The notes: a model not told the origin generated them from the sequence alone. A stretch of DNA of 64,000 nt from Raillietiella orientalis (GCA_036172245.1 JAYWIR010000040.1:682001-746000), one strand, 5' to 3'; shown: positions 11,032 through 49,669, counted from the first letter of the stretch. Program-made: numbers and translations.

Positions 11032-11140
11032 TTTCTGGGATGGTCTCACAAGACACCCCCGCGATCCACTGGGAAGTCCCTCCTTTCAGTTCCTCGGGAA
11101 GGTGATTTTGATAGACAAAAGGCAGGAGGAGGAAGGGAAG
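11032..11140 (+). repeat. ~110 bp direct repeat, second copy at 13813-13921
   Basis: 33 bp identical core ATCCACTGGGAAGTCCCTCCTTTCAGTTCCTCG (11064-11096, 13845-13877). Confidence 0.9.
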
Positions 11141-11189
11141 AGGAAGAAGGGAGGAGGAGGAAAGGCAGACGAGCTTGAGAGGGACCACT

Positions 11190-11700
11190 TTTCCTCACCC
11201 CACAACATGAACGTGGGGAGATGAATGACCTCGTTTTCCCAGCTGGGGTCGGTCAGTCCCTTGGGGTGGAGAGGGGGGATCGCACCTTCCACCCTGGTTG
11301 TCTCCGAAGGGGAACCCAGAAGGGAATCTCCTTCCTCATTCTCTCCGGAGGGAGCACCCCGGAAGGGGGGTGGTCCTCTCCATTTCATCTTTTCCGGAGG
11401 GAACCTGCAAGGGAACAGCTCCCGTTCACTCCTCTGAAGAGAACTCCGAAGGGATGCTTCAGAAATTCAGAAGGGGCGCTGCAGCTTCCCTCAGGGGGAT
11501 TCCTTGCACTCTTCTGGAGTTCTGGCCTCCTTCATGGGCCTTCCGGCTTAAACCACCACCGGTGCTTCGCCCGAATGTCTCCGCCAACCAGTGCCATTGC
11601 AGGAGAAACTCGAAACCCAACGACGCAGTGGCATCAGTTTCTGCCAGAGTATTCGAACCCACGACGCATGGTGCCACGCGCGGAAGCCTTAGCCACAAAG
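11190..11700 (-). mobile_element. tRNA-headed repeat, diverged copy with empty target site
   Basis: Minus strand GTGGCTAAGG...CGTGGCACC...GTGGGTTCGAATAC; body includes the CTCCTCTGAAGAGAACTCCGAAGGGATGC block shared with other copies. Confidence 0.65.
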
Positions 11701-22879: not shown

Positions 22880-24691
22880 CAGGAGATAGAAACGAAGAAT
22901 CCATATTAATTGCGGAGGAGGTTGAGAAGTCTCTCTTGACATTGGTAGCAGTCCCTGTTGGCGGCTGACTTTAAGAGTAGCAAATGTAAATCTTCCCTGC
23001 ACCAAAAATGATCGTGCGTCCGAGCCCCTCGTGCGCATGCTCAGCTGACCTGTCGCACGATGGCTCTCACTCATCCGCTTCGCCTCCGAGCTGGATGTTG
23101 CATTAACATCTCGCGCTGTTCGGGAAAATCGCACATCAAGTCGACCAGCCTCCATTAGAGCTAGGGCTCAACGCCTGTTGTGGAACGCCCTCTGGGGACC
23201 TGCGATCTCCAGAATTTGCTTGAAGGACTTGGCGGATTCGCTTCGGGATGCCGGCTTAAGCAACCTGACGCTGGATAAAATCGGACTGCAAGTGCAGGTC
23301 CGGATGCTGGCATCTGCGCCAAGCTGTGGGCTTCCCCGGCGCTGGCACGCATCATCCTGCTGTGATGCGCCGGCAGCGAAGGACTGCTTTCGTTGCTGCC
23401 GAGCACCTACTACAGGATCCGAAGATTCGGCTTCCCCCTGAGGCCACGCGCCTCTCTAGTGGAAGTCCAACCATGGATCTTCCGCCGCCCAACGAACTGC
23501 AATGCTTGTCGGCAAGAGGCTGTCGAGTTCTGAGCTGTGTTCCAGGGGATGCGCCCTCAAGATCTTCGCCCCGAGACATCTACCACGATCGCTGGAAGAG
23601 GTGGTGCAGTGTGCAGAGAAGTGATCGACTCTGGCCGCCACACCCCTCGCTGAAGCGCTGTCTGACCCAAGGGCAAGAGATGACAGCTGCCAACCGGCGA
23701 GATGGAAGTTTTTCCTGCACCATCCCAAGAGAAACGATACTCCTTGGCGGATGGAAGACGAGCGAGCTGGTGGATGCTGCCACTCTGCGTAGTATGGCGA
23801 CTGGGCTCCGTCGGTAGAGTCAACTTTCAAGTGTTCCTCCCGATAAATTTGTGGTCCCTCCCTAGTGCTGTAACACCTGCATGTTCCCTGTTACGTGGAA
23901 ACAGGTAGAGCTACTTCTCCTGCACTGGGGACTCTGGTGCAATCAGCGCTGGCACCCTCATTTTTGGAGAGGTTACACCCCCGAACTGTGCCAGCTGCAG
24001 GTTGGCGGAGTCAATCCCGCACCTGGTTTTGAACTGCGGCACCCACCGGAAACTGTTTCGGAGGCTTGCGTGAGCACCCCTGCACCAGGAGGACAGCGCC
24101 CGCAACCTGCCGCGGCGGTTCTTTGTGTCTGACGGACTTTCGACGGGCGTGGTGATCGCAACGATGGGTTGCGTCCGTGCAATCGTGCCGGGCCGCCATG
24201 TTCTCAAGACGACAATGCAGAGAAGAGAGGTCACTAATATGGCAGCCGCCTACATGATGGCGGCTGCAAGGTGGTCTCACCTGGAAGAAGAAGAGAAGGA
24301 GGAAATCTCCAGCATTCAGAGCCGACTAAGAAGTGAAGATACAGTACGACCCTTGTCGCCAGCTTCCCTTTATTTAGTTACTTGTTTTTTTTTTTTTTTG
24401 ACCACTCAAATTCTCTCCGCACCCATGCTAGTATTCTCTCCCCACCCATGTTTGTATATATACTCATCCCGGTATAGATGGAGCAACACCACAGATCCTT
24501 GCTCCATCTCTCCCGTACCTATTTTTTTGTCTGTTCCCCTTCCCTCCTTCCCGTTCCGGACTTTCGGATATTTCGATCTGCGTATCAGTGGACCCTTTTC
24601 CCGAACTTCCTTTGTCTTTTGCTGAGAACCACCGTGTTCCCGTCTGGTTTATTTTTATTAAATAAACGCCCAGTCGTGACCGGGCAAAAAA
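22880..24691 (+). mobile_element. Degenerate L1/Tx1-like LINE
   Basis: LWGPAISRICLKDLADSLRDAGLSNL matches the post-RT motif of the 35136 copy; same 3' end AATAAACGCCC...GTGACCGGG-A6 at 24661-24691. Confidence 0.65.
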
Positions 24692-25204: not shown

Positions 25205-25302
25205 TTCTTCGCATCGGATATCCACGGGACAGATTCGAAGCAGAGTGCGATCTGCTCCGCCAGATGAGTTGTTTCAGGTCCAGGAAGCAAGTTCTCCACA
25301 AA
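25205..25302 (+). repeat. ~100 bp direct repeat, second copy at 27119-27218
   Basis: CGGGACAGATTCGAAGCAGAGTG and TTCAGGTCCAGG blocks identical in both copies. Confidence 0.85.
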
Positions 25303-25499
25303 AGCTGGTGGTCTCCCGATCGTTGGCGAGAAAACCTGTGACCTTGACATGTCACCTTTTCCCTTCCTGCTAAGAAAGATATGGAGCTTCAGAAACAGAC
25401 GGTGAGGGCTCTGTTCTCGTTCCAGGAAGCTACGATCTGGTCCCGAATGGTGGACCCCGCAGCATTCCATTCGTACCTGGTGACGAATGCACTGTTTAT

Positions 25500-26200
25500 C
25501 GGAAAAGTTAGCCTGACCTTCACTCTCCACTTTCAGAAAGTCATCCACGCTTCGCGGAACAGCAACCAAACCCCGAAACAAACGTTCTCGAATCAGAAAA
25601 GAAAGGAAAAAGGAAGAAATATGGCGGTGGTGGTTCTTCTCTTGCATTTCCATCCTCACTTTTCCTTCTTTTATTTTCTGGAAAAGCGACATCCACTTGC
25701 CGGTTGCTCCGCGAACCTCAGAGGGAAGTTTTGCCGTTCTTGGTCTGATATTCAGGAACTTTTCCGCCCTCGCGGAGTGATAGATGTGTTGCGACCTCTC
25801 CTCTGGCCTTCGTGTCTTCGTCGGAGATCCCGCTCCCAGTGTTATGTCTGGTACCTCTAGCACTTTCCTGGATCGCCTCCGGAAGAGATCTGCTTCTCGA
25901 GTGTTTCTCCTACTCTAAAAATGGCTGCTGATTTGCTTCACCTCTTCTCCAAGAATGCTCCAGTGACAAGCAATACTTCTGACTTTGCATTCGGTAAAAA
26001 GAGGTATCAGTAAGACGAGGAGGATCACCCTAACAGCTTCCACTTCTTGATCGGGAAAACCGAGTTCCCCGGTCAGCCGCCGGCACCCCTGAGCATCGCT
26101 TGGCGCGGCGACCTTTCCCTCGTCTTGACCACGTCGTTTTGCAACTCGATCAAAGCAATACTTTGCTTGCCGCAGATTTCTGAACCTCATCCCATCTCGA
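25500..26200 (-). mobile_element. Ty3/gypsy-like gag remnant
   Basis: FDRVAK (about 26140) and IRERLFRGLVAVPRSVDDFLK (25594-25530) resemble arthropod gypsy gag motifs, as recalled. Confidence 0.4.
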
Positions 26201-27699
26201 CTCCCAGCTAGCCTCTCTCGCATCCTTGTCCCCTTCCCCCCCGCTCCCACCCGTAAATCGCTCGCCGCTATCGATGATGTATTCTTTGATGCGTGCCCCG
26301 CCATCAGGGGAGCAATCCAGTCTCCGAAACCTTCTCACTGTCGAGATGATGCACCGATGGCTACATGCACATTTCCCGCTGCAGCATTCTCACAACGGAT
26401 CATGGGTCATCCTTTGTTCCTTCTCTTACCCATCCCGAAATCCAGGGGACATAACGACGTCCAGAAACGCCTGCCGGAGATTTCTGGAGAATCAACTTCA
26501 AAATTCCCTCCTATGACTGGTTGTTTTGCTCTGTCGGCTTTTTTTCTTTTTCATCCATTGAAGGAGTAGAAACTATCAGTGGAAGCATCTCTGAGCACTG
26601 AGAATTCAGGGATTTTCATGAGGGCATTCAATTCTTTCTGGCGAACTGCACTCCTCCCGAGTGCTTCTAACCTTTGAGGACAGTTTGCTTTTTCAATGAT
26701 CAGTTCTTCGGTAGTTTTCGTTGTTATTGCTCGCCATTGCTGATAGAGGCGTAAGCTGCCGCTGCAGTCGCAAAATCTCCCAGCAGAGTAGACTTCATTG
26801 CCTTCCTTGAAAGACTCACTAGACGATGGCTAAACCAGAAAAAAAAATGTCGAATGGAGAAAGGTCTGAAGGACCTACAGAATGGCTGAAAAGAGATCTA
26901 GAAGGAAAGGAGGAGGATTCAGCAGACTGTTCTCCGGACAGCTGATTTTCCGGGAAGCGCTTCGTAAGCGGTGACACCGCTTCTCGATCTCAGAGCTCTG
27001 GAAGCTACAGTCAGGAAGAGAAGACCTGTTTCGACTGCTCGTGCCTTGGGCTTCTGGTCTCTCTAGGAGTGGGGCACGCAATGCACATCCATGTGTCCTG
27101 TTCAGGAAAAGAGGTGGACCTTCGCATCTGGTATGCGCGGGACAGATTCGAAGCAGAGTGTGTGATCCGCTCAGCCAGGTGAGTTGCTTCAGGTCCAGGG
27201 CGCAAGTTCCCCACAGAATCTTTGCCGAAATGATGGCAAATTTCTATGAAACTCGGTCCCAGAATGTGAGTGTTGCGTCTTCTCTTTTCCACTGCGCACT
27301 TTGTTTTGCATCGTTTTGCTCGGTACGAAATCCCTGGACCATCGAGTCCACCATTTCAGAAGATGCGCTAGGAGAAGGGGCACATCTGCCAAAGAGTCCG
27401 AGCCATCTGCTCAAAACAACAGCAGCTGAGGCCCTGGGAAGCAAGCATCCTACTCAAAAGGGCCTCCACCCTGGTCTCCCTAGTTACTGACCAGAGTAGG
27501 AGTTCCGAACGCTGCTGGGAGGCACATCCAACAATGAAGAAGGCTTCCGGTTTCCAGCATCTCCTCATCCGAAGCTTCGTGGCATCCTGTATTTGGTGGA
27601 GAGGAGGGCGACTCCGTCTGTGGCGAAGACGACATCTCTTCTTCTGGCAGGACAAGAGACCATTTGCAGCTTTCGTTCCCTCCGAAGCCCGCGTTGGTG

Positions 27700-29080
27700 G
27701 TCGTGTGGCTGCGGTCTCCCGCGCCACGTGGCACCAAAGCGTTGCGGGTTAGAATCCTCACGTTGAGGATCGACGCCGAGAAAGGGGCGGGTGAGTGGTG
27801 TGTTTGGTTCCCCCCCCTTGATTGACCTGTAGGCTTGGAGTGCGCGGCACTGGTTGACACCCGATCACTCCAGGGAGTTTATTTCTAAACCTACATATCT
27901 GTGGCAGGACGTTTGATTCTGCCACGTTACTTATGGATACAAAAGGAACCTGCCGTGAACAGACGCGCAGACCAGCAGGGTTCGCCTTGGCAGCACAGGG
28001 GAAGGGGAGACAAACAGAAAAAAATGAAAAATGCAGTCAAAAAATGGGGAAGAAAGGGGGTTTAGGAAGAGATCATTATGTGCTGGAGGGTGTCCTCTGC
28101 ATCCTTGCAAGGATGCCGTCAAGTTCCTGTTTTATGGTTCCCAGATGGGACCATCTTGACGCTGTCCTCATGAAAAGAACAGCAAAATAGATGGCATCCC
28201 TGTCATCCTGGCCTCCTTTGGCGTTGCTCCATGCAGCCACGATTCCGCGTAGGCAGCACAGTGCTGCTTGGGATGCGGCAGGCGTGAGGGAGTCGCACAG
28301 GAAGAGGTGCTTTACAACGTCTCTAGAGTTGAAGAGTCGCAGCAAAGCGTCCCCAAAGAGGCCTGAGGGTATCACAGTGCACTAGAAGGTGCGGGAAGGA
28401 TTCCCGCTCCCCGCACTTTGCATAGTTTGGGTTTATACCCCTCCCCTGTGTCCACAGGTACTGGCAGGCTTGCACGGGAGGCCCTAGTGCAGCAGCATCA
28501 ATGCCGACTCCTGACACTTTAAGGGGAGAGTGCGGCACTGGCCGGGATTGGAAGTCGACCTTCCGGAGCCCTACCAAAAAGCAAGTATCCCTTCGAGGTC
28601 CCCCCCGGTTGTGAAAATGGAGCCATCTGCCTCCTCTGGAGAGGAACTCTCCATCGTGTGCGATGAGCTGGTTGATACCCCCCCACCTTGGAGGGTCGCC
28701 TCTCCAGAATTCAAGAAGAAGAGCTGCTCCCTTCGGAGAGTGACCCTCATGGAAGATCGGAAGCGTCCCTTCTGGAGTCTTTCCAGAGGAGGAACAAGAA
28801 GAAATGAAGAGTGGTCTCCATTGGGAATTCCTCCTGAGAGAATAAGGAAGAAGTTCCCTTCAAAGACAACCAGCGCAAGGGTTCTCTTCGGGGTTTCCCA
28901 ACTTGAAGGAACGGACTCCTTCCTGCGAAGCCTTTCTAGATTCATGGGACGGCACCCTCCAACTCGAAGAGGAACGTGCACCTTCTGGTGGAGTGGACAG
29001 TATTAAAGAGCTTCATGGGTCCACAGGAGGACGGTCCTGAGTCCTTAGAGAATCAAAAAAGGGAAGGGAACCCGAAGCGC
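27700..29080 (+). mobile_element. tRNA-headed repeat interrupted by a LINE insertion
   Basis: Head GTGGCTGCGGTCTC...GCGGGTTAGAATCC (27747-27757). Body resumes at 28542 (GAGCTGGTTGATACCCC etc.); tail CCTTAGAGAATCAAAAAAG. Confidence 0.75.
27854..28531 (-). mobile_element. 5'-truncated L1/Tx1-like LINE (678 bp) with 10 bp TSD GCGGCACTGG
   Basis: Homologous to 33739-34440 (NPNYAKCGERESFPHLLVHC...ELDGILARMQ). AATAAA at 27883-27878; TSD at 27844-27853 and 28532-28541. Confidence 0.85.
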
Positions 29081-30699
29081 CGCACGAAGGCGTTCCAAGA
29101 CTTGTAGACAGGAATGGGGGCTGTTTGCTCTTGCGGAACCTACTGATAGGAGTGAATCCAGCGCCCCGTGTCACTAAAAGCAGGCAAGAACCTTGGTGAA
29201 GAATTCTTGAAGACCACAGCATCGCGCGAGCTGTTGCGGAAACTGGATGCTGTGCTTGCGAGCATCCGCAGTGTGTGTATATTGAGTTGCGCCCTGGATC
29301 AGTCGTGACGATCTGTGCGTGCAGAATAAGAGGCGCGTGTTATGTGAATGCCATGTGTTTCCGCGGTTCGTGTGAAAGTACTCATTTGCTGACGCCCCTC
29401 ACTCGCGGAACAAAGAATCATCGTGTGCACCATGGTCATGGGATGGATTCATCACGTGAGAAGATGGCGGATGCGGCACGCTATTTCTGTTTGTGGCGCA
29501 TCCGCTCGCCGATTCGGCTAACCAAGCAGAAGATCGGCAAAGAAAACACGCGTAGATCAGTAACCGCAGCTGTTCCTGATCAACTATGTGGATGTGTGGA
29601 GGAAGGAGCCAATCAGAGTGCTGACTTGAAAAGCCGAATGGCTGGCCGATCCTGGATATGAATGGAAGTTCTTTCACTCACGTTAGTCTCTACTGGCTGC
29701 AGCACTTTCCAGGACGGAAGTGTTGCAAACGACCTGAACTGCTGCGACAGCTTCACCTTTCGCCACTTGTTTCCAAGGGTTCCTGATGATGTTCGCTCAT
29801 TGCAGGTTTTCGAAGCCGGGACGTTTAGTTCATAAAAATAAACAAGCGATTCGGGAACGCAAATGTCCGGAAACCGGTCCCTACTGGTCCCTACGCTGGT
29901 CGCACCGAGAACATTAGCGCAGAAACAGCAATACATCCTGTTTTTACTTCAAGGGGATGCAGAAATGTTCGTGCACAAAGGAGGAGGAACAACGAGTTCT
30001 TCGGTGGGCGAACGCTCGACAGCTCTCTGCACCGAAGCAGTTCCTTCACCCGGGAACGAGGAGTGGCGACGTTCACCAACTCGCTCGCTTACCAGAAGTC
30101 CAGGAGTTTGGTCACTCCTGCAATTGTGCAGAAGAACTCCTACCTTGCCGATAGTCGCTGTTTGCCATTAGGACAGGCAACGCTGCGGCAAAGGGGTGTG
30201 TCGGCCTAGCGAGCAGACTTCCTCAAGTTCTGCAGAACGTCTCCCAATGGGAGGTTGCGACAAGGACGCAGGGAATAAAGTACTTCTGGTCCAGTTTTTA
30301 ATGTGGAAGCCCAAGACGCAGACGCCTTCTTTTTCCAGGCATTTACTGAGCGGCAGAAGAGCCAGCCAGCTGCCTCGGCGGGAAGACAAATCCCTGCATC
30401 CTGATCGGCAGCGCAGCAGAAACTTCAGTTGCCGTCGCAGAGCTGAACGATGAGGCGGAGAGGAACACATCACGCCGTGGTGCACACTATTTGGCACACA
30501 GTGCCAGCATTCGGAACTGCAGTCCGATCTTTTCCAGCGTCAGGACTCCCAAGCCTCCATCCTGAGGAGGTGCCACCAAGTCCTCCATGCGGATCCGGGA
30601 CCTTGCAGAACTCCACAGGGTTTTCTCAGGAGGCACCACGCCTGGATCTTTGGTCGGGCAGGGAACGGGAAAACAACAAAATAAGGCGCGCAGGTGGGA

Positions 30700-32300
30700 A
30701 GCAACAAAAAGTGTTTTAGATGATAGCCCGTTCCAGACGAAGTTGCCATAGAGGAATGGACCAAAGGCCATCTCAGCCTTCTAAAGGCAGCCCAATCACC
30801 ATTCTTCAGCGCGGAAGTCTCCCAACGAAACTTAAGGAAACTTAGAGTATTTGCCCCAGAGGATCCCCGGGCGGATCCAGCCGGACTGCTCCTTTCACGA
30901 CGCATCCATAGGGACCAACGTGCTCTGGGTCCTCTTTACGCGCAAGCCGATGGTCAGCTCGATGAAGTCCTCAAACTTAGCCTCCGAGGTGGACATGAGC
31001 AGCAGGAGGAGCAGGTCGTCCGCGTAGGCGGACACGGCCGTGTATTCGGGTCTAAGATTGCAGTTTCTCCCATCTTTTCCTCCTTAACCCATTTGCCCGC
31101 TTGCGAGTGACTCATCCGATGCTTCCAATTCGAATCCCAGAAGTATGCAATGCTCGATAGAGCCATTTCCTTTCTGATGTAACCCATCCGTTCCTTCGGA
31201 ATTCTTAATCCTTTAGCGCTGTTTGGATCCCAGGATCCCAGAGTTCCTACGCCCCCAGTAGGAACTCTGTAGGGTCAATCCTCCGTATTTCTGAGACTCT
31301 TCCAACATCATTGCTGAGTATTCAGAGGGGATAGAGATTCAGGCTTCAGTTCTACGTCATTCCCAGGAATAGGTCAGTTAAAGACCGCCTCTTCGCATTG
31401 TTTCCAGATAGCCTGCTTTGAACTGTGCTTCCTGCTGGTCGTGGTACTTCTGAACACGGTATGGCTGTTGAGGTATCGGTTGAGGATGAGACCCAGTCTT
31501 CCTCTCCATCTCCCGCACATCTTCTGCACCGTATCCGTTCCCGGAGGACGATGTTTGCACAGGCAGAACGCTGAGTCACGTCTCATGGACAGATGTGCTC
31601 CCTAAGAGCAAGTGTTCTTCCCTGAACACAAAATGAGCCCCTAGGCCCAATGCCGGTGGCGCGAGACCCGGTCCTGCTAGTGGAGCTGAGCGCTTTGCAA
31701 TGAGCGAGAGGTCCAAGCTGCCCTGGGCCGAGCCGTGCTCAAGGAGGAGGCTCAAGCTTCTTCCTTTTTGTGCACGTTAAAAGTGCAGCCACCAGATGGA
31801 ACTTTCTTTTCCGAACATCCGTTCTGCCTCAACTCGAACGGACGGCTGACCCCCCACGATCCAGATGCCTTTGGTTTCACCTCTGGATTCCGATCGTGGC
31901 GAGTCACGAAATATCCCGTGTCCCGAAATTTCCACCATTCAGTGGCTGACGACTCAACTGGCTGCTATCGTCCACAGTTGTGGAAATCATCCAACCAAAA
32001 CCTTCTTGCGTTGAATCCCGCGCACGCAAGAGGTGATCTTCCTCGAGTGCATGTCAAACCTGATCATCAGCTGCAATTTCTGGCTCTTCCCTTTCATGCA
32101 GTCTTGAAATTGTCGGAAGCTTGCCTCCCTATGATCCAGACGTCTTTGATGTTGCTGAAGATGCGACAGAGCAACGGTGACAGCTGCAAATGAGGACGAC
32201 GCCACTACTTGAAAAGGATGCAAGGGAAGAAGCTTGACCTCAAGAAAGATCTACTTCGGAGAGAGGTGCCGGAAGGCAACGTTCCACAACAGGTTGAAGG
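30700..32300 (-). mobile_element. Degenerate L1/Tx1-like ORF2 remnant with RT catalytic motif
   Basis: VSAYADDLLLLL (YADD at 31026-31015); upstream ATEWWKF linker-like motif near 31930; many stops and frameshifts. Confidence 0.6.
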
Positions 32301-33582
32301 TCCTTAAAATGATCTTATGAACCCTGAGCCGATGATTTTCACGTTGTCAGCAGCAGATGCTTTGATCTTGGTGTCGGCTCCTTTCATAGACGTGCACAAC
32401 AGAACTGAAAATATGCAACCAAAGATGCACAGGAAGATACGCGATCCCGAATTCTTCACTCCGGGCTACTTAAAGCTCCGTTAAAAGGGAAGAGGGAAGA
32501 TTCCATCGAATCACATTTGAAACGGGAAAGAACGGTTCTCCCAAGAGTGGAAGTGTGCATCTGAGAACGCTATTCTTTCATTGTCCACGCCTGATGTGTG
32601 CACTCTGTCAATAGCTGTCGTGATTGTTTTATGGCAGGAATTTGCCTAGTAAAAGTGCAGGGCGTTTCGTTCCCGCATCCCGTCCACGCGACCGTGTGAT
32701 CCTTCCGTGACGGACTTGCACTGCTGTTGGTCAAGAATTCATCAGGCAACGGCGCCTGATGAATCCTGAAAGTCCCTCTCTCCGATCACTTTCCTGAATT
32801 TGAGGCAAATGTTTGAGGTTTCTTTGGCTTTGGAGGAACACGAGGAAACTCCATCCAGGACGGGAGTATCTGGATGGTACCTGAGTGATAGCGTGAGCGC
32901 AAAAGTCTAGCAAGAAGAATTCGGTTAGCTTCCGAAATCTCCACCTCAAATGATTCTATTCATTCGTTACCTTAATTGTGCGTGCATTTAGACTTATCTG
33001 GTCTCCTAGAAGATGCTTTCATGATGGGATTCTTATGCTGCAGCCAGGAGCAAACAACTGTGCATGGATTTGGAAAGACCGCGGTGTTCGCTTCCTGGTG
33101 CCACTTTCACTCCGAAGAAGTGTGACAGCAACTACAGAAACCAGAATGCCTTCCTTGAGCAGGATGGAAGTCCAGGAAGTAGAGAAAAGCAAGTTGTCAG
33201 GGCTGTTAAAACCGTAGCAGATCCGGTGGGAAAGCTGCGAGCAGGGAGAACGGCTGATGGTGCTCTTCTGGGCAAAGATTTGCGGATCTGTGCAGGCGGC
33301 AGGTTGAGAGACTTTCTCTGTCTTCAGGAAAATGAGCGCTGTGTTCGTTCACCCTTCCACTTTTCGAACGGAGGGCTCGAACGTGTAGCATGCAGAAATC
33401 ATAGCTGGTCAACGCTGGCGCCACCCTGGCATTTTCAGGTACCCTCAATGATCGCAAAAGCGAGGCTCCAGTATAGTGGTGAAGGAGAACTCTGAGAAAC
33501 CTGGGCGATCAAAATGGTATGCTCCGCCCTCAGTGAACTTGCTACAAACATGGAAGATGCTCGATAGCATCTGCGATGGCAG

Positions 33583-35790
33583 CCACGTGGCTGCGGTCTC
33601 AGCGCGCGGCGACAAGCGTTGTAGGTTCGAATTCCCACGTCGAAGACCGACTCTGAGAACGGAGGATGCGTCGTGGATTTCGCGTCTCCCCCTCAGGATG
33701 ACGCTGACCGGCCTATAGACTTCGGATGCGGCACTGGTTGGCACCCGGTCACGCCGGTGGGGCGTTTATTTAAAAAAATAAACAAACATGTCTGTGGCAG
33801 GGCGTCTGATCCTGCCACGTTGCTTACAACTTCGAGAAGGAACCTGCTGGGGACTGATATGCAGGCCAGCAGGGTTCCCCTCAGCAGCACATGGGAAGAG
33901 GAGACAAACAAACAAAAATAAAAACAAAAACCATAAAGTCAAAAAAATGGGGAAGGAAGGGGAGTTTGGCGCGGGATCACTGTGTGCTGGAAAGTGTCTT
34001 CTGCATTCTTGTAAGGATGCCGGCAAGTTCGTGTTTTATGGTTCCCAGATTGGTCCATCTTGACGCTGTCCTCATGAGAAGGACAGAAAAGCAGATGGCG
34101 TCCCTGTCGTCCTGGCTTCCTCTAGCGTTGCTCCATGCAGCCAAAGTCCCGCCGCGTGGGCAGCAAAATGCTACTGGGGATGAGGCTGGAGTGAGGGCGT
34201 CTCTCAGTAAGAGGCGTTTTAAAACGTCTCTAGAGTTGAAGAGTCGCAACAAAGCGTACCCAAAGAGGCCGGAGGGTATCACAGTGCACTAGGAGGCGCG
34301 GGAAAGATTCCCGCTCCCCACACCTTGCACAGTTCGGATCCATTCATCCACCCACTCGTGTCCAATGATTCCGGCAGACGTTGCACTGGAGGTCAAAGTG
34401 CAGCAGCATTGACGCCGACTCCCACCACTTCAAGGGTAGAGTGCAGGTGTCCATGAGCACCGAGGACAACTGCAGGCCTTTCTCCGGAATACACAGTAGC
34501 ACGCCCCAGCGCAAAAGTCCAAGATGTCGAGCAATCGGGGTCTCAGAGTCGATGATCTGGTCCGTCGGCGACTCTCCCAGTCCTTTCCTTCTTCCGAAGA
34601 TTTCCGTAGTAGCCTCCCATCCGTCCATGTGTTTCCTAAGAGAAGGCAGTGCGGTGGCTTGGGAGGTTCTGTCTGCCCACGCAATCTTCGTGGGATCTTC
34701 CAGGATCTCCTGGAACGTGCAGTTGTTGTTGAGCGCGTACAGGAATCGTCGCACCTGTTCCGCGCTTAGCTCCTGGATCCTCTCCCACTTGCGAATGGTT
34801 CCCTGCAACCAGGCACTTCCATTCACGGAGTGATACAAGATCCATGCGTTCTTTTCCGGCCAGCATGACCCCCTGCCGCAGGTGCAGTCCACAGTGGATG
34901 AGACTGTATGGACTACGCTCAAGGAGGGACCGCGAGTCCCACGCTGCTGGCTTGCTGGACGAGAAGACGTGCAGGTTGGCACCAGGTTGTGCTCCATAAT
35001 TTTTTCCACGGGGTTATGTGTCCGAAACTGGAGGTGCAGCTCCATCTACTCCAGCATCAAAAGATCGAGGCCTCCTCTCAGTGCAGGGCACACAAGTCCT
35101 TGAGGCGGACTCGGGGCCTCCCTTTGTTCCAGAGGGTGCGGCACTGGTGGAAGCCAGAAACCCCTGGATGCTCCCGATGATTGGCCGAAATTGAGTTAAC
35201 TCTCCGGGGTCCGTACAGGAATCAAAGAGCTGGCTCTCTTCAGGATTCCCCTACGATTGTGAAAATGTAGCCATCTCCCCCTCCCTTGGAGGGACCCTCT
35301 ATCACGCACCATGGAGCTACTTCATGCTTTCTTTAGAGAGTTGTATCTCCAGGGTGTAAGAAGCGCTCTGCTCCATTCGAGGAGCGACCTTCAGCGAAAT
35401 TGGGATGTATCCCTTGGGAGTTCTCTTTAGAGGAGGAAACGAGAGGCAGACTCTTTCCGAGAATCCTCCGGAGAAGAAATTCAGGAGCAGATCCTTTCCG
35501 GATTCCTTTCGGAGAAAAATGGGGAAGGTCACCCACCAAGAGATCCCTTCGGAGAGAATAAGGGAGATAGAGTTCCCCACCAAGCTTAAGAGGAACGAAC
35601 TCCTTCCTCTGGAGTCTTCCTGTATTCCTAGGGTGGTTCCTCCGGGACTACGCTTCACTTGAAGAGTGACGAGCACCCTCTGGTGTCGTGGACAGTATTT
35701 AAAGGACTTTGGGATCTCCCCCTAAGGAGGCGAGCGGTTCTTCAGCACTCCTTAAGGATGATAAAAAAAGACTGGAACGAAAGCAATGAA
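33583..35790 (+). mobile_element. tRNA-headed repeat interrupted by a LINE insertion
   Basis: Head GTGGCTGCGGTCTC...GTAGGTTCGAATTCCCAC. Body resumes at 35149; tail CAGCACTCCTTAAGGATGATAAAAAAAG matches 44243 onward. Confidence 0.75.
33739..35136 (-). mobile_element. 5'-truncated L1/Tx1-like LINE (1398 bp) with 12 bp TSD TGCGGCACTGGT
   Basis: Degenerate ORF2 C-terminus: LWNKGRPRVRLKDL...GGLDL motif, zf-RVT-like DPNCARCGERESFPRLLVHC. 3'UTR with AATAAA (33770-33765). TSD at 33727-33738 and 35137-35148. Confidence 0.85.
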
Positions 35791-35799
35791 ACAGGGAAG

Positions 35800-36657
35800 A
35801 ACCCAAGACGATTCCGTCGCGGGTCGCTGTGACCCCGAGTGCTCCACCCCAAGGACTTCTACGCTGGAAACAGCTGCTCGACATCCCTCTGGAGGAGGTG
35901 AAGTGGTCACCAGCGTGCTGGAACAGAGGTTCCCTCTTGTCCCCTCAAGTGGCGGGAGTTGGCATTGCTGGTGGTGCATGGAGTAATCCCGTTAGAAGCG
36001 CATGTTCATCACTGGACATGGGGAGGGGGAGCGTGGACACTCAATGCGACGGGTGCAGGCAGATGGAGACCCTCCCGCACTTGCTGGTGGACTGTGTGCC
36101 ATCCGACCCCTTTGAAATCGTCTTGCGACGATCCTAGGAATCCCGATGGGCAGTCCCAGGGACATTTTCAAGCGCCTCTTCCTGCGTGGTGCTGCACTGC
36201 CGACAGCCGCGTCGCTCACAGCCCTCTGCCGTCTTCGAGGGATCGCGACGGCCTGGAACGCAGGAAGGATTGGCTGGGATGGAAGGGACGCCATCCACTG
36301 GATGAGGATCCTCATGGGGACCACCTCGAGATGGCCCCACCTGGACGAGACACGGACGGAACCCGCCAGCATCCTGGACAGGATGCAGGGGACGCCTGGC
36401 AACGCATTGTGATCTCTTCTTCGGTTCTCACTACCCTCTCCCCTCCTCTTTCGTCTCCTTGTGAAATTTTCCCTACCCTGGTTTGTGTGTTTATTTTTTG
36501 TGTTTTTTTCTCTTCCCCCACGCTGCCGAAGCGGACCTCGCCGGTCTGCGTGTCTCTCTTCGGCAGATTCGTTGCACGTGGTAGAACCAAGGGTTCGACC
36601 AGAAAATGTATTTTTACTATTTTATATAATAAATGCCCCGACATAACCGGGTGGTAA
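35800..36657 (+). mobile_element. L1/Tx1-like LINE 3' fragment
   Basis: zf-RVT-like DTQCDGCRQMETLPHLLVDC, then RDIFKRLFLRG...ASILDRMQG*. AATAAA at 36628 followed by the CCCCGAC..ACCGGGTG terminus. Confidence 0.8.
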
Positions 36658-37064
36658 TCATCGTGGGTCTAGAAAGAACAGAAAGGAGCTGAGGGCCCAA
36701 TGATGGAGAAGTCATTCAAGGCTGTGCCATTCGATTGAAAATGGGAGCAAAGAAGGCGTATTCAGATGCCCTCGTACGTATTCGTCCGACATGTGACGAA
36801 AAGTTTAGGACAAGATGTTGCTGCAACTGGTTGCTGAGGAGGATAACTGCTGTTCCTTATGAATAGGACAGCACTAAACGAAACTATTATCCGTTGGCTC
36901 ACATGCATGGATGCTATAAAGTTCATTGCAACCTAGCAGACCATGATGCAAGCCAACATCCTGTGAGTGTGGTTGCATATGAGGATGTATCTCGTTTTTC
37001 AAGTAAACTGGACTCTAAAAAAAAAAAAGAAATAGGCACCTCCTTCCGCCGAAGAATTTGCAGT

Positions 37065-37265
37065 TCCACTGCTTCCGGAAAGATCTCAGATGAAACGCCA
37101 CCGGTCCATCCACCGTGGCAGGCGTTCCTCGCGCGGACAGGTGCGCACGAAGTTTCTTCGCTCGAATTCTTTGCTTGAAAATTCAGGAAGGGACGTCCGT
37201 TCCTCCAGAGGAGATGCCCGGACTTGAAAAGAGGACCAATTAGCGGGAGCTGACTCCGCTCGGTG
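37065..37265 (-). repeat. Unclassified ~200 bp repeat, inverted relative to 38560-38760
   Basis: Shared TTTTCAAGTCCGGGCATC, CCGCGCGAGGAACGCCTG and CACGGTGGATGG blocks. Confidence 0.85.
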
Positions 37266-38559
37266 GGAGACGTGGACTCTTTTGAACGTCCAAAGGCGCA
37301 GCATGAGTGAACGGGAGGAAATTTGGTATCTCCTGCACACTCACAATGATCCAGCCAGGCATACAAGTGGCTGGAAAGCAGCCGTTCGCCTGTATCCACA
37401 AGCATCCCTGTAGCTCAAAGACAATGGACCGCACTTCTGCTTATCTTTTTCGCATTAGTTTTCGCTTCACTCATGGGAAAGGAGGTGTATGAGTCACGTT
37501 GGAGCTTCAAGGCATTCCAGCAAGAGGCCAGCAACATGTAGCTTCCCCCTCTATGACGCGCTAGCTGTCCCGCTTGAAGTCTTCGGGACCAAAATCCTGG
37601 TCACCCTCCAAGTTTCTCTAAAGAACTATTTTCCCTGCTTAGCTCCAGGCTCGTCCCTGTTCACCTCACTTCCTTCGGTCTAATCCCGTCTTTGGTGAAT
37701 TGAGGAGCGTTTTGGAACCTTCACTTCACTTGGTCCACCGCTGCCCTGCCTCCTGCTCTGCAGTCACAGTTGGCATCCTTCTTAGAGATCGAATATCGCT
37801 TCTGGGAAAGTGAGCCATCAGAATGTGAACAGCGATTAGGGTTGAGGTTTGTGGAACTCTCCACTCTTGAGCCTTGGGCTCCGGTTGCCATTAGATCGAG
37901 CCTTCCAAGGGAAAATGTCCCAAACTGAGATAATCCCAGTGATTTCTGGCACAAACGAGGGATATGCTCAGAAGGATGCAAATGAATTTGGTTCTCTCTA
38001 ACACCGATGAAGATTGTCTCTCTCTCTCTCTCTTTGATCTTGATAATCATTGTAATCATTGTGTGCCTCTCTCCGATGTGAGGGCGGGAAGAAAAGATCA
38101 AACCAGGGGCAAATGGGAAAGGCACGATCATGCGTCACTCGACTGATTCGTATGGGCAAAGCAGCCACCAGCTGAATCTCTTCGACTGCCACAGCTGATT
38201 CGCACGATGCGCTTCTCTTCGCTTCTGGACCTCCTGCTTACCTTTGCCGATTTCCGGAGAGACTGCTTGCTCGATGGACCCTTCCGCTTTGCTCCCGCAC
38301 GAAGCCGTGGCTGCTGTGCTCGTAAGCCGAGAGATCGCACGTTCCGTCGAGATGTTACGTCAGAGCTTCGCCTGCCGCAGCAGCTGACGTGGCAAGCTCT
38401 CCTGAAGTCTGCCGAGCTCCCTTCGGAAAAGGAACACCTCGAAACGGTCCACGCAGAGGGATGCAGCGCTGCCTCGATCCAGACGAAGCGACTCGATGGA
38501 GAAAGCATCCCCACAGGGCAAGTTTGGGCTCAAGGGATGTCCAGGGGAGTCCACTTCTT

Positions 38560-41370: not shown

Positions 41371-43520
41371 TCTTTTTCATCCGCGGCACCTTAGGGTGCT
41401 CAGCGAACATCCGGAAGTTCGAACTGGTGGAAGCGCGCGCGATCCCGTTCCTAGTCTGCGCTTTTCCTGTTCCCAAGGGGGAATCCGCAAGTCGTGATGG
41501 CGTTCCAGGATTTCCTCAAGATTTTCTTCGCTCCTTCCTTTTTGTTTATGCTTTTCGTGTGTGCCTCGCAGGATGCTCGAACGCCGGAGTTTTTCAAGAT
41601 GGAGTGCGCCGACAACAGTCGATTCGCGCGGCGGAACCGGAAAGAGAAACTTTGCGCGGTTGCGGCTGCACCAAAGGCGGCACAGTGGGCATCCAATCTC
41701 CCTTGACATCCACCACGATCCGTCGGCTACCCGGTTGTCACGTTAGCAGGACGACCAGACTTTGCACGAGGTTCCGATCGATCGAGGACTCGCTCTCAGA
41801 ACCGTCTCCGGGAATCTCCAAGGTAGCGGAGGTGCCCGCTGCCTCGAGGACTCTCACGAGCTCCGGCCCACGGGGAACGCCCTCTGCACTGCCATGCCTT
41901 GCAGTGTGCGGCGTGAGGCACACCTCCGCATCCTGCCCTGGGGACTGAACACGAGACTCTGGCGCGTTTCCGAAATCCCCAGGTCTCGAGGAAACGCGAA
42001 GTCACACCCGGGAACTACAGGCATGACGTAATCCTCTCCGAATGGCAACGCTGGAAAACGGGGAGATCCTGCTGGACGTGCGACTCCTGCCGGTTCTTTC
42101 TCTCTCCTTCTTCATTTTTCCTTCCGTCCGGCGTCCTTGCTCCTCCCGACCCCCCGGGACCCCCCTTTTCCTCCTCCGTTCTGCCCCAGATCACCACGTG
42201 AGCGTTCCTGCCGGCTTGCACGTATTCACTTGCCCCTCGTACCTGCCGAGAGTCGTTCAAACAGGGCGAGGTCCGCAGCGGATGAGGTGCGCGTCCGCCC
42301 TCGACTCCCTCGCGCGACGACGGAGCCTTCCCCGACTGCAAAGAGAACCCCCTTCGCGCTGTCGGGGACAGGTCGGGAGTTCCAAAGGAGGCAACCGATG
42401 CTTTCCTTATGGAGGAGGAGTTCTGGATCTATGCGTGCGCGCGCACGCGAAGGCGCCCAGCTCCGAAAGCGACGGCGAGACCGGGAGCGACGCGGAGGAT
42501 GACACATCCAGGCAGGTTTCTGGATGCGCTGGCGCTGGAGAGACAAGCGACTCCCCCCCCTTCCTTCCCAGGCGCAGAGAACGAAGAAGGCACGTCGGGA
42601 ACGCCTGGCATACCCGAAGGGCGACTCCGCAAGCATCATTCCCCCGTATCCCCGGGATGACAGGAAGTTGATTTCTCTTCCGGAGCTCTGTGGAGCGCCT
42701 GTGGCGTCGCCACAAGGCGCCTCTCCTCCGAGCTTGCGGAAGCGCGACCTCTCCGGCAGGGCCGGCTCGCTGGTGACCGCGGAAGCCGAGGGGCAAAAGC
42801 AAGAGTTGACCTTTCTCAGACATCCGAGGGAGCGAAGGAGGGAGGGATGAGGGAAAGCCCGAGAGAAATGAACTCCCCGAAGGAGCGTGAGTGTGCGAGC
42901 AATGAGCGGAACGGGATGGGGAAGGGAAGGAAGGAAAACAGGAGTTTCTAGAAAGCCAAGCTCTGCTCTGGGACCTCCGAGTGCGTAGGAGAATAGAGTA
43001 GTCATCCAAGGAACGGGCAGAGGAGGGGGTTTCCAAGCGTCCTTCTGGGATCTCTAGGGGAATTCTCGCTGTTGCATTTCCCCAGTCGCCCCTTTTATTC
43101 CCTATCCTCCCTGCCCACGCCCTGCTAGCACGGGGAAGGAAACGAAGATCGACTGCGCCAAACAGAGGACCTCGAGAAGTGATGATGCTGGAGCTTCTCT
43201 TTCCGCCAAGGGACGCCCTGATTGCCCTGCCGCCCTAGCATCCCGGCAAAAAGAGGCGAAGAAGGAGAATCTTTTTGGATCATTAAAGGGTCTGTTTCCT
43301 TCCGCGCGCCCTGCGGCGTCTGGCCGCTATCTTTAGGGGGCTTCCCGCGTCCCGCCAGCGTCCGCCCACAGGTTCTCGGCGTAGTCCGACGAGAGCTTCA
43401 TGATGTCAGCGCCCTTTGTCACAAGGGAGGAAGAGGGCGGGGAGAGGGAGTCGTCTTCTTCTTTCCGGCACCTCCTGTACCTTCCTCAGAAGAAGGCATT
43501 TAGCTTACAGCGTTTGCATC

Positions 43521-44290
43521 GCCCGCGTGGCCGCTCTCTCCGCAGGCGTGGCACCGAGTGGTTGCGGGTTCGAATCCCACCCGGGAAAGAATCGATGCCG
43601 AGAAACGAGGGTACGTCGTGGACTTCGATTCCCCCTCCCTCGCAGGATGGCGCTGATTGGCCCCAGTTGGCTTCGGGAGCGGCGCTGGAGGATAACCGGG
43701 TGCCCCCGTCGACTGGCCGGGATCGGAAGAGGACCCTACAGGATCCTTCCTAAAATCAAGGTCACCGTTCCCCTTCGGTTAGGAGAATGGAGCCACCTTC
43801 CATCGCGCACCATGGAGCTGGTTGACACCCCTTTCGGGTAGTCGCCCCTTCAGAGTGCAAAGAAGAGCACTGCTCCCTTGGGGGAGCGCCCTTCAGAGAT
43901 ATTGGGAAGCGTCGCTTCGGGATTTGCTTCAGAGGAGTTAACAAGGAACGGTACCCTCGCAGGTTCCGTCCGAGGAAGAAATGAGGAGGTCTCCGGAGAG
44001 AGTAGGGAAGTGGTTCGCTTCGAAATTCCCTCCGGAGACAACTGGAGCGAGAGTTTCCTTCGGGATTGCATACCAGGCGTGAGAGGAACGGATTCCTTCC
44101 CTCCGTGGGCTTCCTGGATGCATACAGGGTGGTTCTCTCCCGTGGTACCTCCAATAACTTGGAGAGTTGCGCGCATCCTCGGGTGGCGTCGACAGTGTCC
44201 TCAAGATCTTTGTGCGCTCCCTTAAGGAAGCGGGAGGTTCTTCAGCACTCCTTGAGAACCCGAAAAAGCAAACGAATAAACGAAGCGGAT
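43521..44290 (+). mobile_element. tRNA-headed SINE-like repeat (~770 bp), apparently full-length, empty LINE target site
   Basis: Head GCCCGCGTGGC...GCGGGTTCGAATCCCACCCGGGA (A-box-like, B-box 43567-43578). Body shared with 6 other loci; ends in CCTTGAGAACCCGAAAAAG plus A-rich tail. Confidence 0.8.
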
Positions 44291-47519: not shown

Positions 47520-48259
47520 CCTTCCGCTTTCTTTTTTGGGTTTCGCTAAGGACTCAAAGACAGCCTTGGAAGGGATGGCGGGGGAGGGGGGCACGAAACT
47601 TTTCCAACACTGTTGACGCCGTCCGAGGATGCGCGCGACTCTCCAAGTTATTGGAGGTACCACGGGAGAGAACCACCCTGTATGCATCCAGGAAGCCCAC
47701 GGAGGGAAGGAGTCCGTTCCTCTCACGCCTGGTATGCAATCCCGAAGGAAACTCTCGCTCCAGTTGTCTCCGAAGGGAGTTTCGAAGCGAACCACTTCCC
47801 TACTCTCTCCAGAGAGACCTCCTCATTTCTACCTCGGACGGAACCTGCGAGGGTACCGTTCCTTGTTAACTCCTCTGAAGCAAATCCCGAAGCGACGCTT
47901 CCCAATATCTCTGAAGGGCGCTCCCCCAAGGGAGCAGTGCTCTTCTTTGCACTCTGAAGGGGCGACTACCTGAAAGGGGTGTCAACCAGCTCCATGGTGC
48001 GCGATGGAAGGTGGCTCCATTCTCCTAACCGAAGGGGAACGGTGTCCTTGATTTTAGGAAGGATCCTGCAGGGTCCTCTTCCGATCCCGAACAGTCGACG
48101 GGGGCACCCGGTTATCCTCCAGCGCCGCTCCCGAAGCCAACTGGGGCCAATCAGCGCCATCCTGCGAGGGAGGGGGAATCGAAGTCCACGACGTACCCTC
48201 GTTTCTCGGCATCGATTCTTTCCCGGGTGGGATTCGAACCCGCAACCACTCGGTGCCAC
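47520..48259 (-). mobile_element. tRNA-headed repeat, inverted copy
   Basis: 47607-48259 is the near-exact reverse complement of 43548-44198; diverged homologous tail continues to about 47520. Confidence 0.85.
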
Positions 48260-49669
48260 AGGGCCGCCGTTTCTTCGTTTGTTGGGACACGGGGACTCCC
48301 CCTGACAACGTTGGACGGCCTGAAGTCTCCCGGAGAAAGCCGATGGAGGCGCATGTGCCAGAGCGTCACCGGCGTCGAGTGCCTGCCGTTTTTTTTTTCT
48401 CGGCAAAGCAAGGAGCTCGAAGCACATGCACCTGCTGCTAGTCCCGGTATGGGCGAACATCTTCCCAACGGCCACAGCTTGAGACAAGCAAACAGAATAG
48501 CAAACGTCTCCGCGAAAGCAATAAACGAAGAGGAAGCCGCTCCCAGGACGGGAGCACGGCGGAGTCGGCTGCGGATGGGCTGATGCAGCAGTCCCACGGC
48601 AGCTCGGAACGACCACCGTTTGGACCCATTTGTTCCACTGGAAACGTGGAAAACTGCTGTTTGCCTGAGAGGCCGCCCTTGCACGGGTGGGAACGACCAG
48701 AGGGGGATCCCTCTGGAGAGAGCAGCGTTTTCCCTTTCCAGAAAGGCGCCTCTGCTCCCACCGCAAAAAGAAAAAAAAGAACAGCTCTGCAGCCTCCTCG
48801 CGGCTGCAGCGGAGCCGTCTCCGTGAAGACGACGATCCCAATCAAGGTTTCCACAGAAACATCCCAGCAATTAATCACAAAGACACTTGACAAGTGTGTT
48901 TGTTTCCTGGAAACGGTTGTTGGCAGCTGGAGCATCGAAACGAGTATCCGAAGGGAAGTTTCATTTCTCTTCGACAATATTCTCGCCTCACGGGATGATT
49001 AATCTTTTGGAAACGGCTGCAGCATGAGGGCTGGCCGGCGCTTGGAAAAAATGAAAACAAAAAAAGCGTCCCTCGCGACTGGGATTTCCTCAAGCAACGC
49101 GCCTTTTTTGATTATCCTTTTCCTCTCCCGGCCCCCTCCTTTCCTGCTGCGGCGGCCTTCGTCTTCGCATGTATGCGATGCGGAACTTCCAGGAGCGACA
49201 TGGAGCTAAATGAACCCAAGCAGGGCTCGTTAGGCACCAGCGATCGGCAGAGAGCGGGAGATGCGGACAGCCGAGAGTCGGGATTCACGCGGTTGAATAT
49301 GCAGTGGTCGCAGCGTACCGCAGATCGTCAGCCTCTTAAACGGAGAACCGCTCCGTGGAAGGGAAGGCCTCGGTCTTCGCTACCGGCCGAAGGGAGCGTT
49401 CTCGCTTCCGGGAACGGCCAACGTTCGAAACGGAACGCGCGCAAAACCACACGAAGCCGAGCTCGGCCTCTGCGCCGCTCTCAGGAAACGCGCGAAGCTT
49501 GCGGACGTCCGCCCACTCCCGGCTTCGGATCCAGGGCTGGAAAATCTCCAGCTTTGTCTCAGCATCGTCGTCAAGGAAGACATCTCCCATACACACGCAC
49601 ACAACGACAAAGGAGGACACCACCCGCACATAGCAGGGAACGCTCCAGACCGTTGGTTGGCTCCCTTCC

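What the first reader, a model, noticed from the sequence alone, without database searches (positions are those of the whole stretch)
27700..35790. Candidate site-specific Tx1-like LINE inserting at one fixed site in a tRNA-headed repeat
Seen: two LINE copies (27854-28531, 678 bp; 33739-35136, 1398 bp) share a 3' end but have different 5' truncations. Each is antisense inside a copy of the same tRNA-headed repeat at the homologous position. Each is flanked by a duplication of the same target (GCGGCACTGG, 10 bp; TGCGGCACTGGT, 12 bp). Empty-site copies carry the motif once (43679-43688, its inverse near 48120, and 11556-11568), and host sequence after 35148 continues colinearly with 43689 onward. 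Known: Tx1-clade elements are often sequence-specific (Tx1L into Tx1D; Keno/U2, Mutsu/5S, Dewa/tRNA spacer), and Dictyostelium TRE3 inserts about 100 bp downstream of tRNA genes. Inference: two independent TPRT events by an element targeting this Pol III repeat, by sequence or by position (about 90 bp past the B-box). Other family copies here (24691, 36657) are not visibly at this target, so specificity may be partial.
Basis: partly seen in the sequence, partly recalled or inferred. Interest (0 to 1): 0.82.

Follow-up and report, generated by a model that had tools for sequence, protein, structure and literature searches.

The report
LINE hitting one site in a repeat
Two broken copies of the same jumping gene (a LINE) sit at exactly the same nucleotide of two separately inserted copies of a roughly 700-base repeat, which suggests a LINE that aims at a fixed target, a behaviour already known in other LINE groups.

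Summary
Two antisense, 5'-truncated fragments of one LINE subfamily (27854-28531 and 33739-35136) share a 3' end. Both lie at the same nucleotide of two copies of a ~700-bp repeat, each flanked by a duplication of GCGGCACTGG. Empty copies carry the site once.

The main rival, one ancestral composite later copied and deleted, is disfavoured:
- The host parts of the two composites are only 64% identical, against 81% for the LINE parts.
- Against an empty copy, the three host copies form a star with no A=B excess.
- Homology stops at the repeat's ends.

I conclude that two independent target-primed insertions at one site is the best reading (about 0.65). This implies target specificity of this subfamily.

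Limits:
- The count is two of two copies.
- Three more distant family copies in the window are not at this target.
- No genome, sequencing runs or related sequences could be obtained.
- "Tx1-like" could not be tested. No RT or endonuclease domain was found in the ORFs scanned, and the C-terminal protein pieces have no detectable relatives.
- "tRNA-headed" rests on a B-box-like motif only.

LINEs that target fixed sites in other transposons are already described, so this would be a new member of a known kind.

The parts
27688..27853 (+). Host repeat copy A, 5' part (head with B-box-like GGTTAGAATCC at 27747-27757), up to the insertion site
   Evidence: nhmmer host profile positions 1-171 at 27706-27871; alignments; B-box-like match. 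The start is approximate, because homology among copies begins about 20 bp before 27706.
27844..27853 (+). Left copy of target duplication A (GCGGCACTGG)
27854..28531 (-). LINE fragment A, 678 bp, 5'-truncated. Its 3' end (AATAAA ... GTGATCGGGTGTCAA) lies at the left. At the 5' junction, 6 bp (GAGTGC) are shared between the LINE and the host.
28532..28541 (+). Right copy of target duplication A (GCGGCACTGG)
28542..29060 (+). Host repeat copy A, 3' part with A-rich tail. It lacks about 35 bp next to the target that copies B, C and D have.
   Evidence: nhmmer 28537-29046; alignments; tail
33570..33738 (+). Host repeat copy B, 5' part (B-box-like GGTTCGAATTC at 33624-33634)
   Evidence: nhmmer 33588-33751
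33727..33738 (+). Left copy of target duplication B (TGCGGCACTGGT). The last T is ambiguous with the LINE's A tail.
33739..35136 (-). LINE fragment B, 1398 bp, 5'-truncated. It has the same 3' end as A. It carries a 233-aa ORF remnant (34347-35045), a CCHC motif, the ORF2 stop and a 3' region.
35137..35148 (+). Right copy of target duplication B (TGCGGCACTGGT)
35149..35780 (+). Host repeat copy B, 3' part with A-rich tail
   Evidence: nhmmer 35134-35761
43505..44262 (+). Host repeat copy C, empty site (GCGGCGCTGG once, at 43679-43688; perfect GGTTCGAATCC at 43567-43577)
47540..48260 (-). Host repeat copy D, empty site (48119-48128), head truncated. It is 97.5% identical to C over about 650 bp, but its tail differs.
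11290..11693 (-). Host repeat copy E, diverged. Its site homologue GAAGCACCGG has no insert.
23701..24691 (+). Distant LINE-family copy Q (3' end AATAAACGCCC..GTGACCGGGCAAAAAA), not at the target
35782..36657 (+). Distant LINE-family copy R (3' end ..ATAACCGGGTGGTAA), not at the target. It starts next to the tail of host copy B.
29815..30139 (-). LINE-family fragment F with an internal gap, not in a host repeat

Best explanation
A subfamily of a non-LTR retrotransposon (LINE) inserted twice, independently, by target-primed reverse transcription. Both insertions are at the same nucleotide and in the same (antisense) orientation, in two older and separately inserted copies of a ~700-bp dispersed repeat.

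The strand of the repeat that reads ...GCGGCACTGG was nicked right after CACTGG. Its 3'-OH primed copying of a LINE RNA that ends ...GTGAYCGGGTGYCAA, with a very short A tail. The other strand was cut 10-11 bp away, giving the GCGGCACTGG duplication. Reverse transcription or 5' joining stopped at different points, giving 678 and 1398 bp. In copy A the joining used 6 bp of microhomology.

Shown: the anatomy, the identical 3' junction, the duplications, and the younger age of the inserts relative to their hosts.

Inferred: that the repeated use of one site reflects target specificity of the element. The cause would most likely be a sequence-specific endonuclease, as in the Tx1 and R1 clades. Alternatively, read-through RNA from a resident copy could anneal to the same site in another repeat copy.
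For: 1. Anatomy and duplications.

2. Same junction in both: CACTGG|TTG(A/G)CACCCG.

3. The LINE parts of A and B are 80.9% identical (n=677). Their host parts are 63.9% identical (n=624). The bootstrap 95% interval of the difference is 0.12-0.22, and it holds without CpG sites (0.13-0.23). Transversions are 6.9% against 13.5%.

4. Host copies A, B and the empty copy C form a star. Pairwise identities are A-B 0.640, A-C 0.679 and B-C 0.666. Of 585 ungapped columns, A=B differs from C in 77, A=C from B in 97, and B=C from A in 81. A and B therefore share no exclusive ancestor.

5. A sensitive blastn finds no colinear homology in 2.5 kb on either side of the repeat. The same settings detect the 61%-identical host parts at E=3e-25.

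6. Each 5' truncation ends exactly at its own duplication. A's junction shares GAGTGC with A's own host variant, where B has GGATGC and C has GGGAGC.

7. The nick tracks the sequence, not the distance from the B-box-like motif (96 against 104 nt).

8. Chance is excluded. A second random insertion at the same base (within 1) and in the same orientation of one of about 4 copies in 64 kb has odds of about 1e-4 (my arithmetic).

9. Precedent: Tx1-clade LINEs that target fixed places in other transposons (PMC4494074, passages read).
Against: - Only two copies of the subfamily could be examined.
- 0 of 3 more distant family copies in the window (Q, R, F) lie at this target.
- A deletion between GAGTGC|A... 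and ...GGGTGC|GGCACTGG in a B-like composite (4 bp of microhomology, GTGC) would give exactly A's right junction.
- Differences between A and B are spread evenly over codon positions (13, 10, 16 of about 85 sites each). There is thus no sign that they come from separately evolving active masters.
- C and D suggest that gene conversion occurs between host copies.
- In the better-aligned left host part alone, the identity gap is modest: 72% (n=128) against 81%.
- No endonuclease or RT sequence is available, so the cause of specificity is pure inference.
Confidence: 0.65

Rival explanations
1. One ancestral insertion. A single LINE copy entered one host-repeat copy. The composite was then copied, as a unit or by duplication, and the short copy A arose from a B-like composite by a later internal deletion that ended at the duplication.
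For: The left host part and the LINE align as one block, 27705-28533 against 33587-34444, at 77%. GTGC microhomology could produce A's right junction. A-B differences look neutral. The two composites lie only 5.9 kb apart in the same orientation.
Against: - Host parts are 64% identical against 81% for the LINE parts, with and without CpG sites.
- A and B are not sister relative to the empty copy C.
- There is no flank homology beyond the repeat.
- The deletion would have to end within a base or two of the duplication.
- A also carries a separate ~35-bp gap just right of the retained duplication.
- The antisense insert contains a TTTT run (about 34033). That run would stop Pol III if the repeat is Pol III-transcribed. 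This last point is inference.
Confidence: 0.12
2. Spread by ectopic gene conversion. One insertion was copied into a second host-repeat copy by recombination that used the flanking repeat homology, and a deletion followed in A.
For: C and D are 97.5% identical over about 650 bp, yet their host-derived tails differ. Conversion between nearby host copies is therefore plausible.
Against: A conversion tract must include host flanks, but identity next to the insert is not raised. The last 25 bp on the left are about 68% identical, followed by an 11-bp indel. On the right there is a 35-bp gap and then about 55-60% identity. This rival still needs the precisely placed deletion.
Confidence: 0.08
3. 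Position-based targeting through the Pol III machinery on the repeat's B-box-like head, as in Dictyostelium TRE3, rather than recognition of the sequence.
For: The insertions lie about 100 nt past a B-box-like motif. TRE3 elements sit about 100 bp downstream of tRNA genes (PMC5006619, abstract and passages).
Against: The nick is at the same nucleotide in both copies, while the distance to the motif differs by 8 nt (96 against 104). TRE3 distances spread widely, for example 14-228 bp for Dd_TRE3-A (PMC5006619, table text). The head is not a detectable tRNA.
Confidence: 0.07

Closest known systems
Tx1-clade LINEs that target other transposons: Tx1L in Tx1D (Xenopus); crocodilian Tx1-Mar families in Mariner-N4_AMi; Tx1-9_AMi in Harbinger; Tx1-8_Crp and Tx1-4_AMi in LTR elements (PMC4494074, passages read)
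   Same: A LINE inserted at a preferred place inside a dispersed repeat, often in the opposite direction to the host element, with 5'-truncated copies and target duplications. That paper also uses truncated copies as evidence of independent insertion.
   Different: Here the target is a retroposon-like repeat with a B-box-like head, not a DNA transposon or an LTR element. The clade is unknown, because no APE or RT domain is available. Only two insertions were seen.
Other sequence-specific non-LTR retrotransposons: the R1 clade, and the early-branched RLE clades such as R2, NeSL and Utopia (PMC4640811, passages read)
   Same: A fixed nick site and a precise 3' junction. The targets are multicopy sequences. 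A CCHC motif lies after RT (that this motif occurs in these groups is recalled, not tested).
   Different: Their targets are mostly RNA genes, microsatellites or telomeres. No restriction-like endonuclease motif is seen in the 11-16 aa between the CCHC motif and the ORF2 stop. The 10-11 bp duplication does not identify a clade.
Dictyostelium TRE3 (PMC5006619, abstract and passages read)
   Same: Insertion about 100 bp downstream of a Pol III-type promoter element.
   Different: TRE3 uses a window of distances next to real tRNA genes. Here the insertion is at one exact nucleotide inside a repeat whose tRNA origin is not shown.

Membership tests
Non-LTR retrotransposon (LINE) | Copies share a 3' end and are variably 5'-truncated | tested here: met
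   A is 678 bp and B is 1398 bp, with a common 3' end. The 3' motif AATAAA..TRAYCGGG occurs 4 times against 0.03 expected.
Non-LTR retrotransposon (LINE) | Target-site duplications flank the insert | tested here: met
   10-bp and 11-12-bp duplications. Empty sites carry the motif once.
Non-LTR retrotransposon (LINE) | Reverse transcriptase domain | tested here: not met
   Pfam scans covered 15, 127 and 129 ORFs of the 292 ORFs of 100 aa or more. Together these scans covered nearly all of the 292; a few ORFs overlapping the host repeats were never scanned. There was no RT hit. The fragments are 5'-truncated downstream of where RT would lie, so its absence is expected and does not argue against a LINE.
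Non-LTR retrotransposon (LINE) | C-terminal CCHC motif in ORF2 | tested here: met
   CxxC-x7-H-x4-C is read in copies R and Q. In A the first Cys is lost, and in B the His is replaced by Arg. The motif was recognised by eye; Pfam gives no hit.
Tx1 clade | APE-type endonuclease and an RT that group with Tx1 in a phylogeny | not testable with these tools
   Neither domain was found in the window. The C-terminal pieces have no relatives in four searches: the search for homologous proteins, 1.84 billion representatives, and PDB sequences at E<=10. The models were too poor for fold search.
Tx1 clade / site-specific LINEs in general | Most copies lie at one target sequence | tested here: inconclusive
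   2 of 2 copies of the A/B subfamily are at the site. 0 of 3 distant family copies (Q, R, F) are there. No genome-wide data could be obtained.
tRNA-derived SINE (host repeat) | Head derived from a tRNA, with A and B boxes | tested here: inconclusive
   A B-box-like GGTTCGAATCC is present: perfect in C and D, with 1 mismatch in A, B and E. ARAGORN at default finds 0. Rfam finds no tRNA. Relaxed ARAGORN hits 3 of 4 heads, but also 58 places in the window.
tRNA-derived SINE (host repeat) | Dispersed copies with an A-rich tail and their own target duplications | tested here: inconclusive
   Five copies end in A/G-rich tails, and their flanks are unrelated. I did not find the host copies' own duplications. 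At about 700 bp the repeat is long for a SINE.
TRE3-like position-specific LINE | Insertion at a range of distances downstream of genuine tRNA genes, set by Pol III factors | tested here: not met
   The same nucleotide is used at 96 and 104 nt from the motif. No genuine tRNA gene is present.

The most novel reading that the evidence does not exclude
A LINE lineage with no detectable protein relatives in current collections homes to one 10-bp site (GCGGCACTGG^) inside a retroposon with a Pol III-type head. It also carries a conserved ~85-codon coding segment downstream of the ORF2 stop. Homing might work through read-through RNA from resident copies annealing to the same site in other repeat copies, rather than through endonuclease specificity alone.
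Probability: 0.15. Interest if true: 0.6.

Novelty: new member of a known kind. Interest (0 to 1): 0.45.

Why it matters
If genome-wide data confirm it, this would add a retroposon-type repeat with a B-box-like head to the list of targets of site-specific LINEs. It would also supply a defined 10-bp target and nick position for studying how a LINE endonuclease, or its RNA, finds a site. It would not change the picture, because LINEs that nest at fixed places in other mobile elements are already described.

The useful result here is methodological. Within a single window, independent insertion can be separated from inheritance of one composite. The test compares the divergence of insert and host, and asks whether the filled hosts are sister to each other.

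Tried and rejected
- Whole genome: none is held.
- Public sequencing runs: none was listed.
- Earlier notes of this scan: nothing by place, by sequence or by words.
- Protein Atlas with the 233-aa LINE ORF: no usable hit.
- The search for homologous proteins with longer targets: none for the 233-aa ORF and none for the 4-sequence C-terminal profile.
- HMMER against 1.84 billion representatives: 0 hits.
- PDB sequences at E<=10: 0 hits.
- Pfam at E<=5 on 6 LINE pieces: 0 hits.
- Metagenome contigs: 194 pattern matches for the protein profile, none of them a relative. 25 matches for the 3'-end DNA motif, none similar to the window by blastn, so they are chance matches.
- Genome contigs (prokaryotes), with a 21-mer shared by A and B: one chance match in a bacterial chromosome, not used.
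- Structure prediction of the 233-aa ORF (pLDDT 28.7) and of the C-terminal profile (pLDDT 48.9): too poor for fold searches, which I did not run.
- Six-frame read-through Pfam scan of 20-40 kb: the call failed on output size and I did not repeat it. RT remnants in ORFs shorter than 100 aa are therefore not excluded.
- A 3'-terminal hairpin of the LINE: only 6 predicted pairs and no compensatory change, so not supported.
- Rejected as chance: relaxed-threshold tRNA cloverleaves in the heads.
- Rejected: segmental duplication of the composites.
Full report
WHAT IS THERE

The window is eukaryote-like repeat-rich DNA (GC 48-65%). No whole genome is held for it.

- Fragment A (27854-28531) is flanked by GCGGCACTGG at 27844-27853 and 28532-28541.
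- Fragment B (33739-35136) is flanked by TGCGGCACTGGT at 33727-33738 and 35137-35148.
- A aligns with the left 706 bp of B (79.5% by blastn; 80.9% over 677 aligned bases). B runs about 690 bp further.
- The motif GCGGCRCTGG occurs 6 times in 64 kb against 0.35 expected. Four are these duplications. Two are single sites in uninterrupted copies of the same repeat, at 43679-43688 (+) and 48119-48128 (-).

THE INSERT IS A LINE-TYPE RETROTRANSPOSON, READ ON THE MINUS STRAND

- The shared end carries AATAAA followed 10-20 nt later by GTGAYCGGGTG and one to a few A. This 3' motif occurs 4 times (0.03 expected): in A, in B, and in two plus-strand copies ending at 24691 (Q) and 36657 (R).
- A DNA profile of the four finds a fifth, internally gapped fragment at 29815-30139 (F) and three weak pieces further right.
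- Translation shows a CxxC-x7-H-x4-C motif, followed 11-16 codons later by a stop, in all four copies.
- Q and R are distant from A and B: about 40-48% amino-acid identity in the tail, and not alignable by blastn.
- No RT or endonuclease domain was found in the 15, 127 and 129 ORFs scanned out of the 292 ORFs of 100 aa or more. A few ORFs overlapping the host repeats were never scanned.
- The C-terminal protein pieces have no detectable relatives.

The clade, and so the 'Tx1-like' label, could not be tested.

THE HOST IS A DISPERSED REPEAT OF ABOUT 700 BP

There are five copies:
- A and B, both filled.
- C (43505-44262), empty.
- D (48260-47540, minus strand), empty. It is 97.5% identical to C over about 650 bp, but its tail differs.
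- E (11693-11290, minus strand), diverged, with no insert at the homologous place.

Copies end in A/G-rich tails.

The head carries a B-box-like GGTTCGAATCC. It is perfect in C and D and has one mismatch in A, B and E. That 11-mer with up to 2 mismatches is not enriched in the window as a whole (25 matches against 26.5 expected). No tRNA is detected by ARAGORN at default or by Rfam. Relaxed ARAGORN hits are unspecific, with 58 in the window. 'tRNA-headed' is therefore plausible but not shown.

ONE EVENT OR TWO?

Five tests bear on it.

1. Divergence. If both composites descend from one insertion, insert and host have the same age.
   - The LINE parts are 80.9% identical (n=677). The host parts are 63.9% identical (n=624).
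   - The bootstrap 95% interval of the difference is 0.12-0.22. Without CpG sites it is 0.13-0.23.
   - Transversions are 6.9% against 13.5%. Gap columns are 38 of 715 against 150 of 774.
   - In the short left host part alone the gap is smaller: 72% (n=128) against 81%.

2. Relationship. With the empty copy C as third taxon, the host parts form a star.
   - Pairwise identities are A-B 0.640, A-C 0.679 and B-C 0.666.
   - Of 585 ungapped columns, 77 have A=B against C, 97 have A=C against B, and 81 have B=C against A.
   - A and B are not each other's closest relatives. This comparison uses the same region in all pairs, so regional rate differences cannot explain it.

3. Flanks. Blastn settings that detect the 61%-identical host parts (E=3e-25) find no colinear homology in the 2.5 kb either side. 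The composites are therefore not a segmental duplication.

4. Junctions. Each truncation ends exactly at its own duplication. A's 5' junction shares GAGTGC with A's own host variant. A also lacks about 35 bp of host just right of the retained duplication.

5. Chance. A random second hit at the same base and orientation has odds near 1e-4 (my arithmetic).

Against independence:
- A GTGC-mediated deletion in a B-like composite would give A's junction.
- A-B differences are evenly spread over codon positions (13, 10, 16).
- The C/D pair hints that gene conversion occurs among host copies. However, identity next to the inserts is not raised.

I put independent insertion with targeting at about 0.65. 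I put single origin plus deletion at about 0.12 and conversion at about 0.08.

HOW IT LIKELY WORKS

Both 3' junctions read CACTGG|TTG(A/G)CACCCG. The repeat's plus strand was therefore nicked after CACTGG in both events, and copying started at the very end of the LINE RNA, which has a 2-nt A tail. The second nick lies 10-11 bp away.

The distance from the B-box-like motif to the nick is 96 nt in A and 104 nt in B. The site follows the sequence rather than a fixed spacing. This speaks against a TRE3-like, Pol III-tethered mode. TRE3 distances spread from tens to hundreds of bp (PMC5006619, abstract and passages read).

The cause of specificity is inferred, not shown. It could be a sequence-specific endonuclease, or annealing of read-through RNA.

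COMPARISON WITH WHAT IS KNOWN

[quoted passage not shown] Tx1 of Xenopus inserts in the transposon Tx1D. Crocodilian Tx1-Mar families insert near position 240 (in the opposite direction) or position 830 of Mariner-N4_AMi. Other Tx1 families prefer LTR elements or a place about 300 bp into Harbinger elements. In that work, truncated copies were used to argue for independent insertion (PMC4494074, passages read).

The present case works like these. Membership in Tx1 is untested. I did not search for a report of a LINE that targets a SINE-like repeat, so I make no claim that none is in print.

VERDICT

The finding is a new member of a known kind, of moderate interest, and needs the genome to be settled.

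Noticed in passing
28079-28330 (-), 33980-34236 (-), 36158-36412 (+), 24095-24340 (+): In all four LINE-family copies ORF2 stops 11-16 codons after the CCHC motif. A further ~85-codon segment downstream is conserved at the protein level (A against R 47.6% over 84 aa by tblastn). It shows more third-position differences between subfamilies: 28, 26, 42 of 83 codons, and 32, 30, 45 of 84. Its frame relative to ORF2 differs among copies. It may be an extra coding segment or a recoded tail. It has no relatives and gave a poor model.
   Followed up: partly
43548-44198 (+) and 48259-47607 (-): Two inverted host-repeat copies are 97.5% identical over about 650 bp, but their host-derived 3' tails differ, and D's tail resembles copy A's. 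This suggests gene conversion between inverted copies, or an inverted duplication that started inside the repeat.
   Followed up: partly
35765-35800: The distant LINE copy R (35782-36657, +) begins directly at the A-rich tail of host copy B. I saw no target duplication for R.
   Followed up: partly
23700-36660: Five LINE-family fragments (Q, A, F, B, R) lie within 13 kb, so the region is a LINE-rich cluster.
   Followed up: no
about 53622-53699 (-): A 26-residue small-GTPase P-loop match (Ras/Roc, E about 1e-4, below or at the Pfam cut-offs) lies inside a 352-codon open frame in the GC-rich right half. It may be a first exon of a small GTPase gene.
   Followed up: no
28542-29046, 35149-35765, 43700-44262: The body of the host repeat looks built from degenerate short units with a recurring TCCCTTCGGAGA-like motif. 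This was seen by eye in the alignments only.
   Followed up: no
25207-25306 / 27120-27221; 37057-37279 / 38766-38547 (inverted); 11029-11162 / 13810-13946; 23188-23322 / 30620-30491 (inverted): Other short repeat pairs of 71-85% identity, unrelated to the finding.
   Followed up: no
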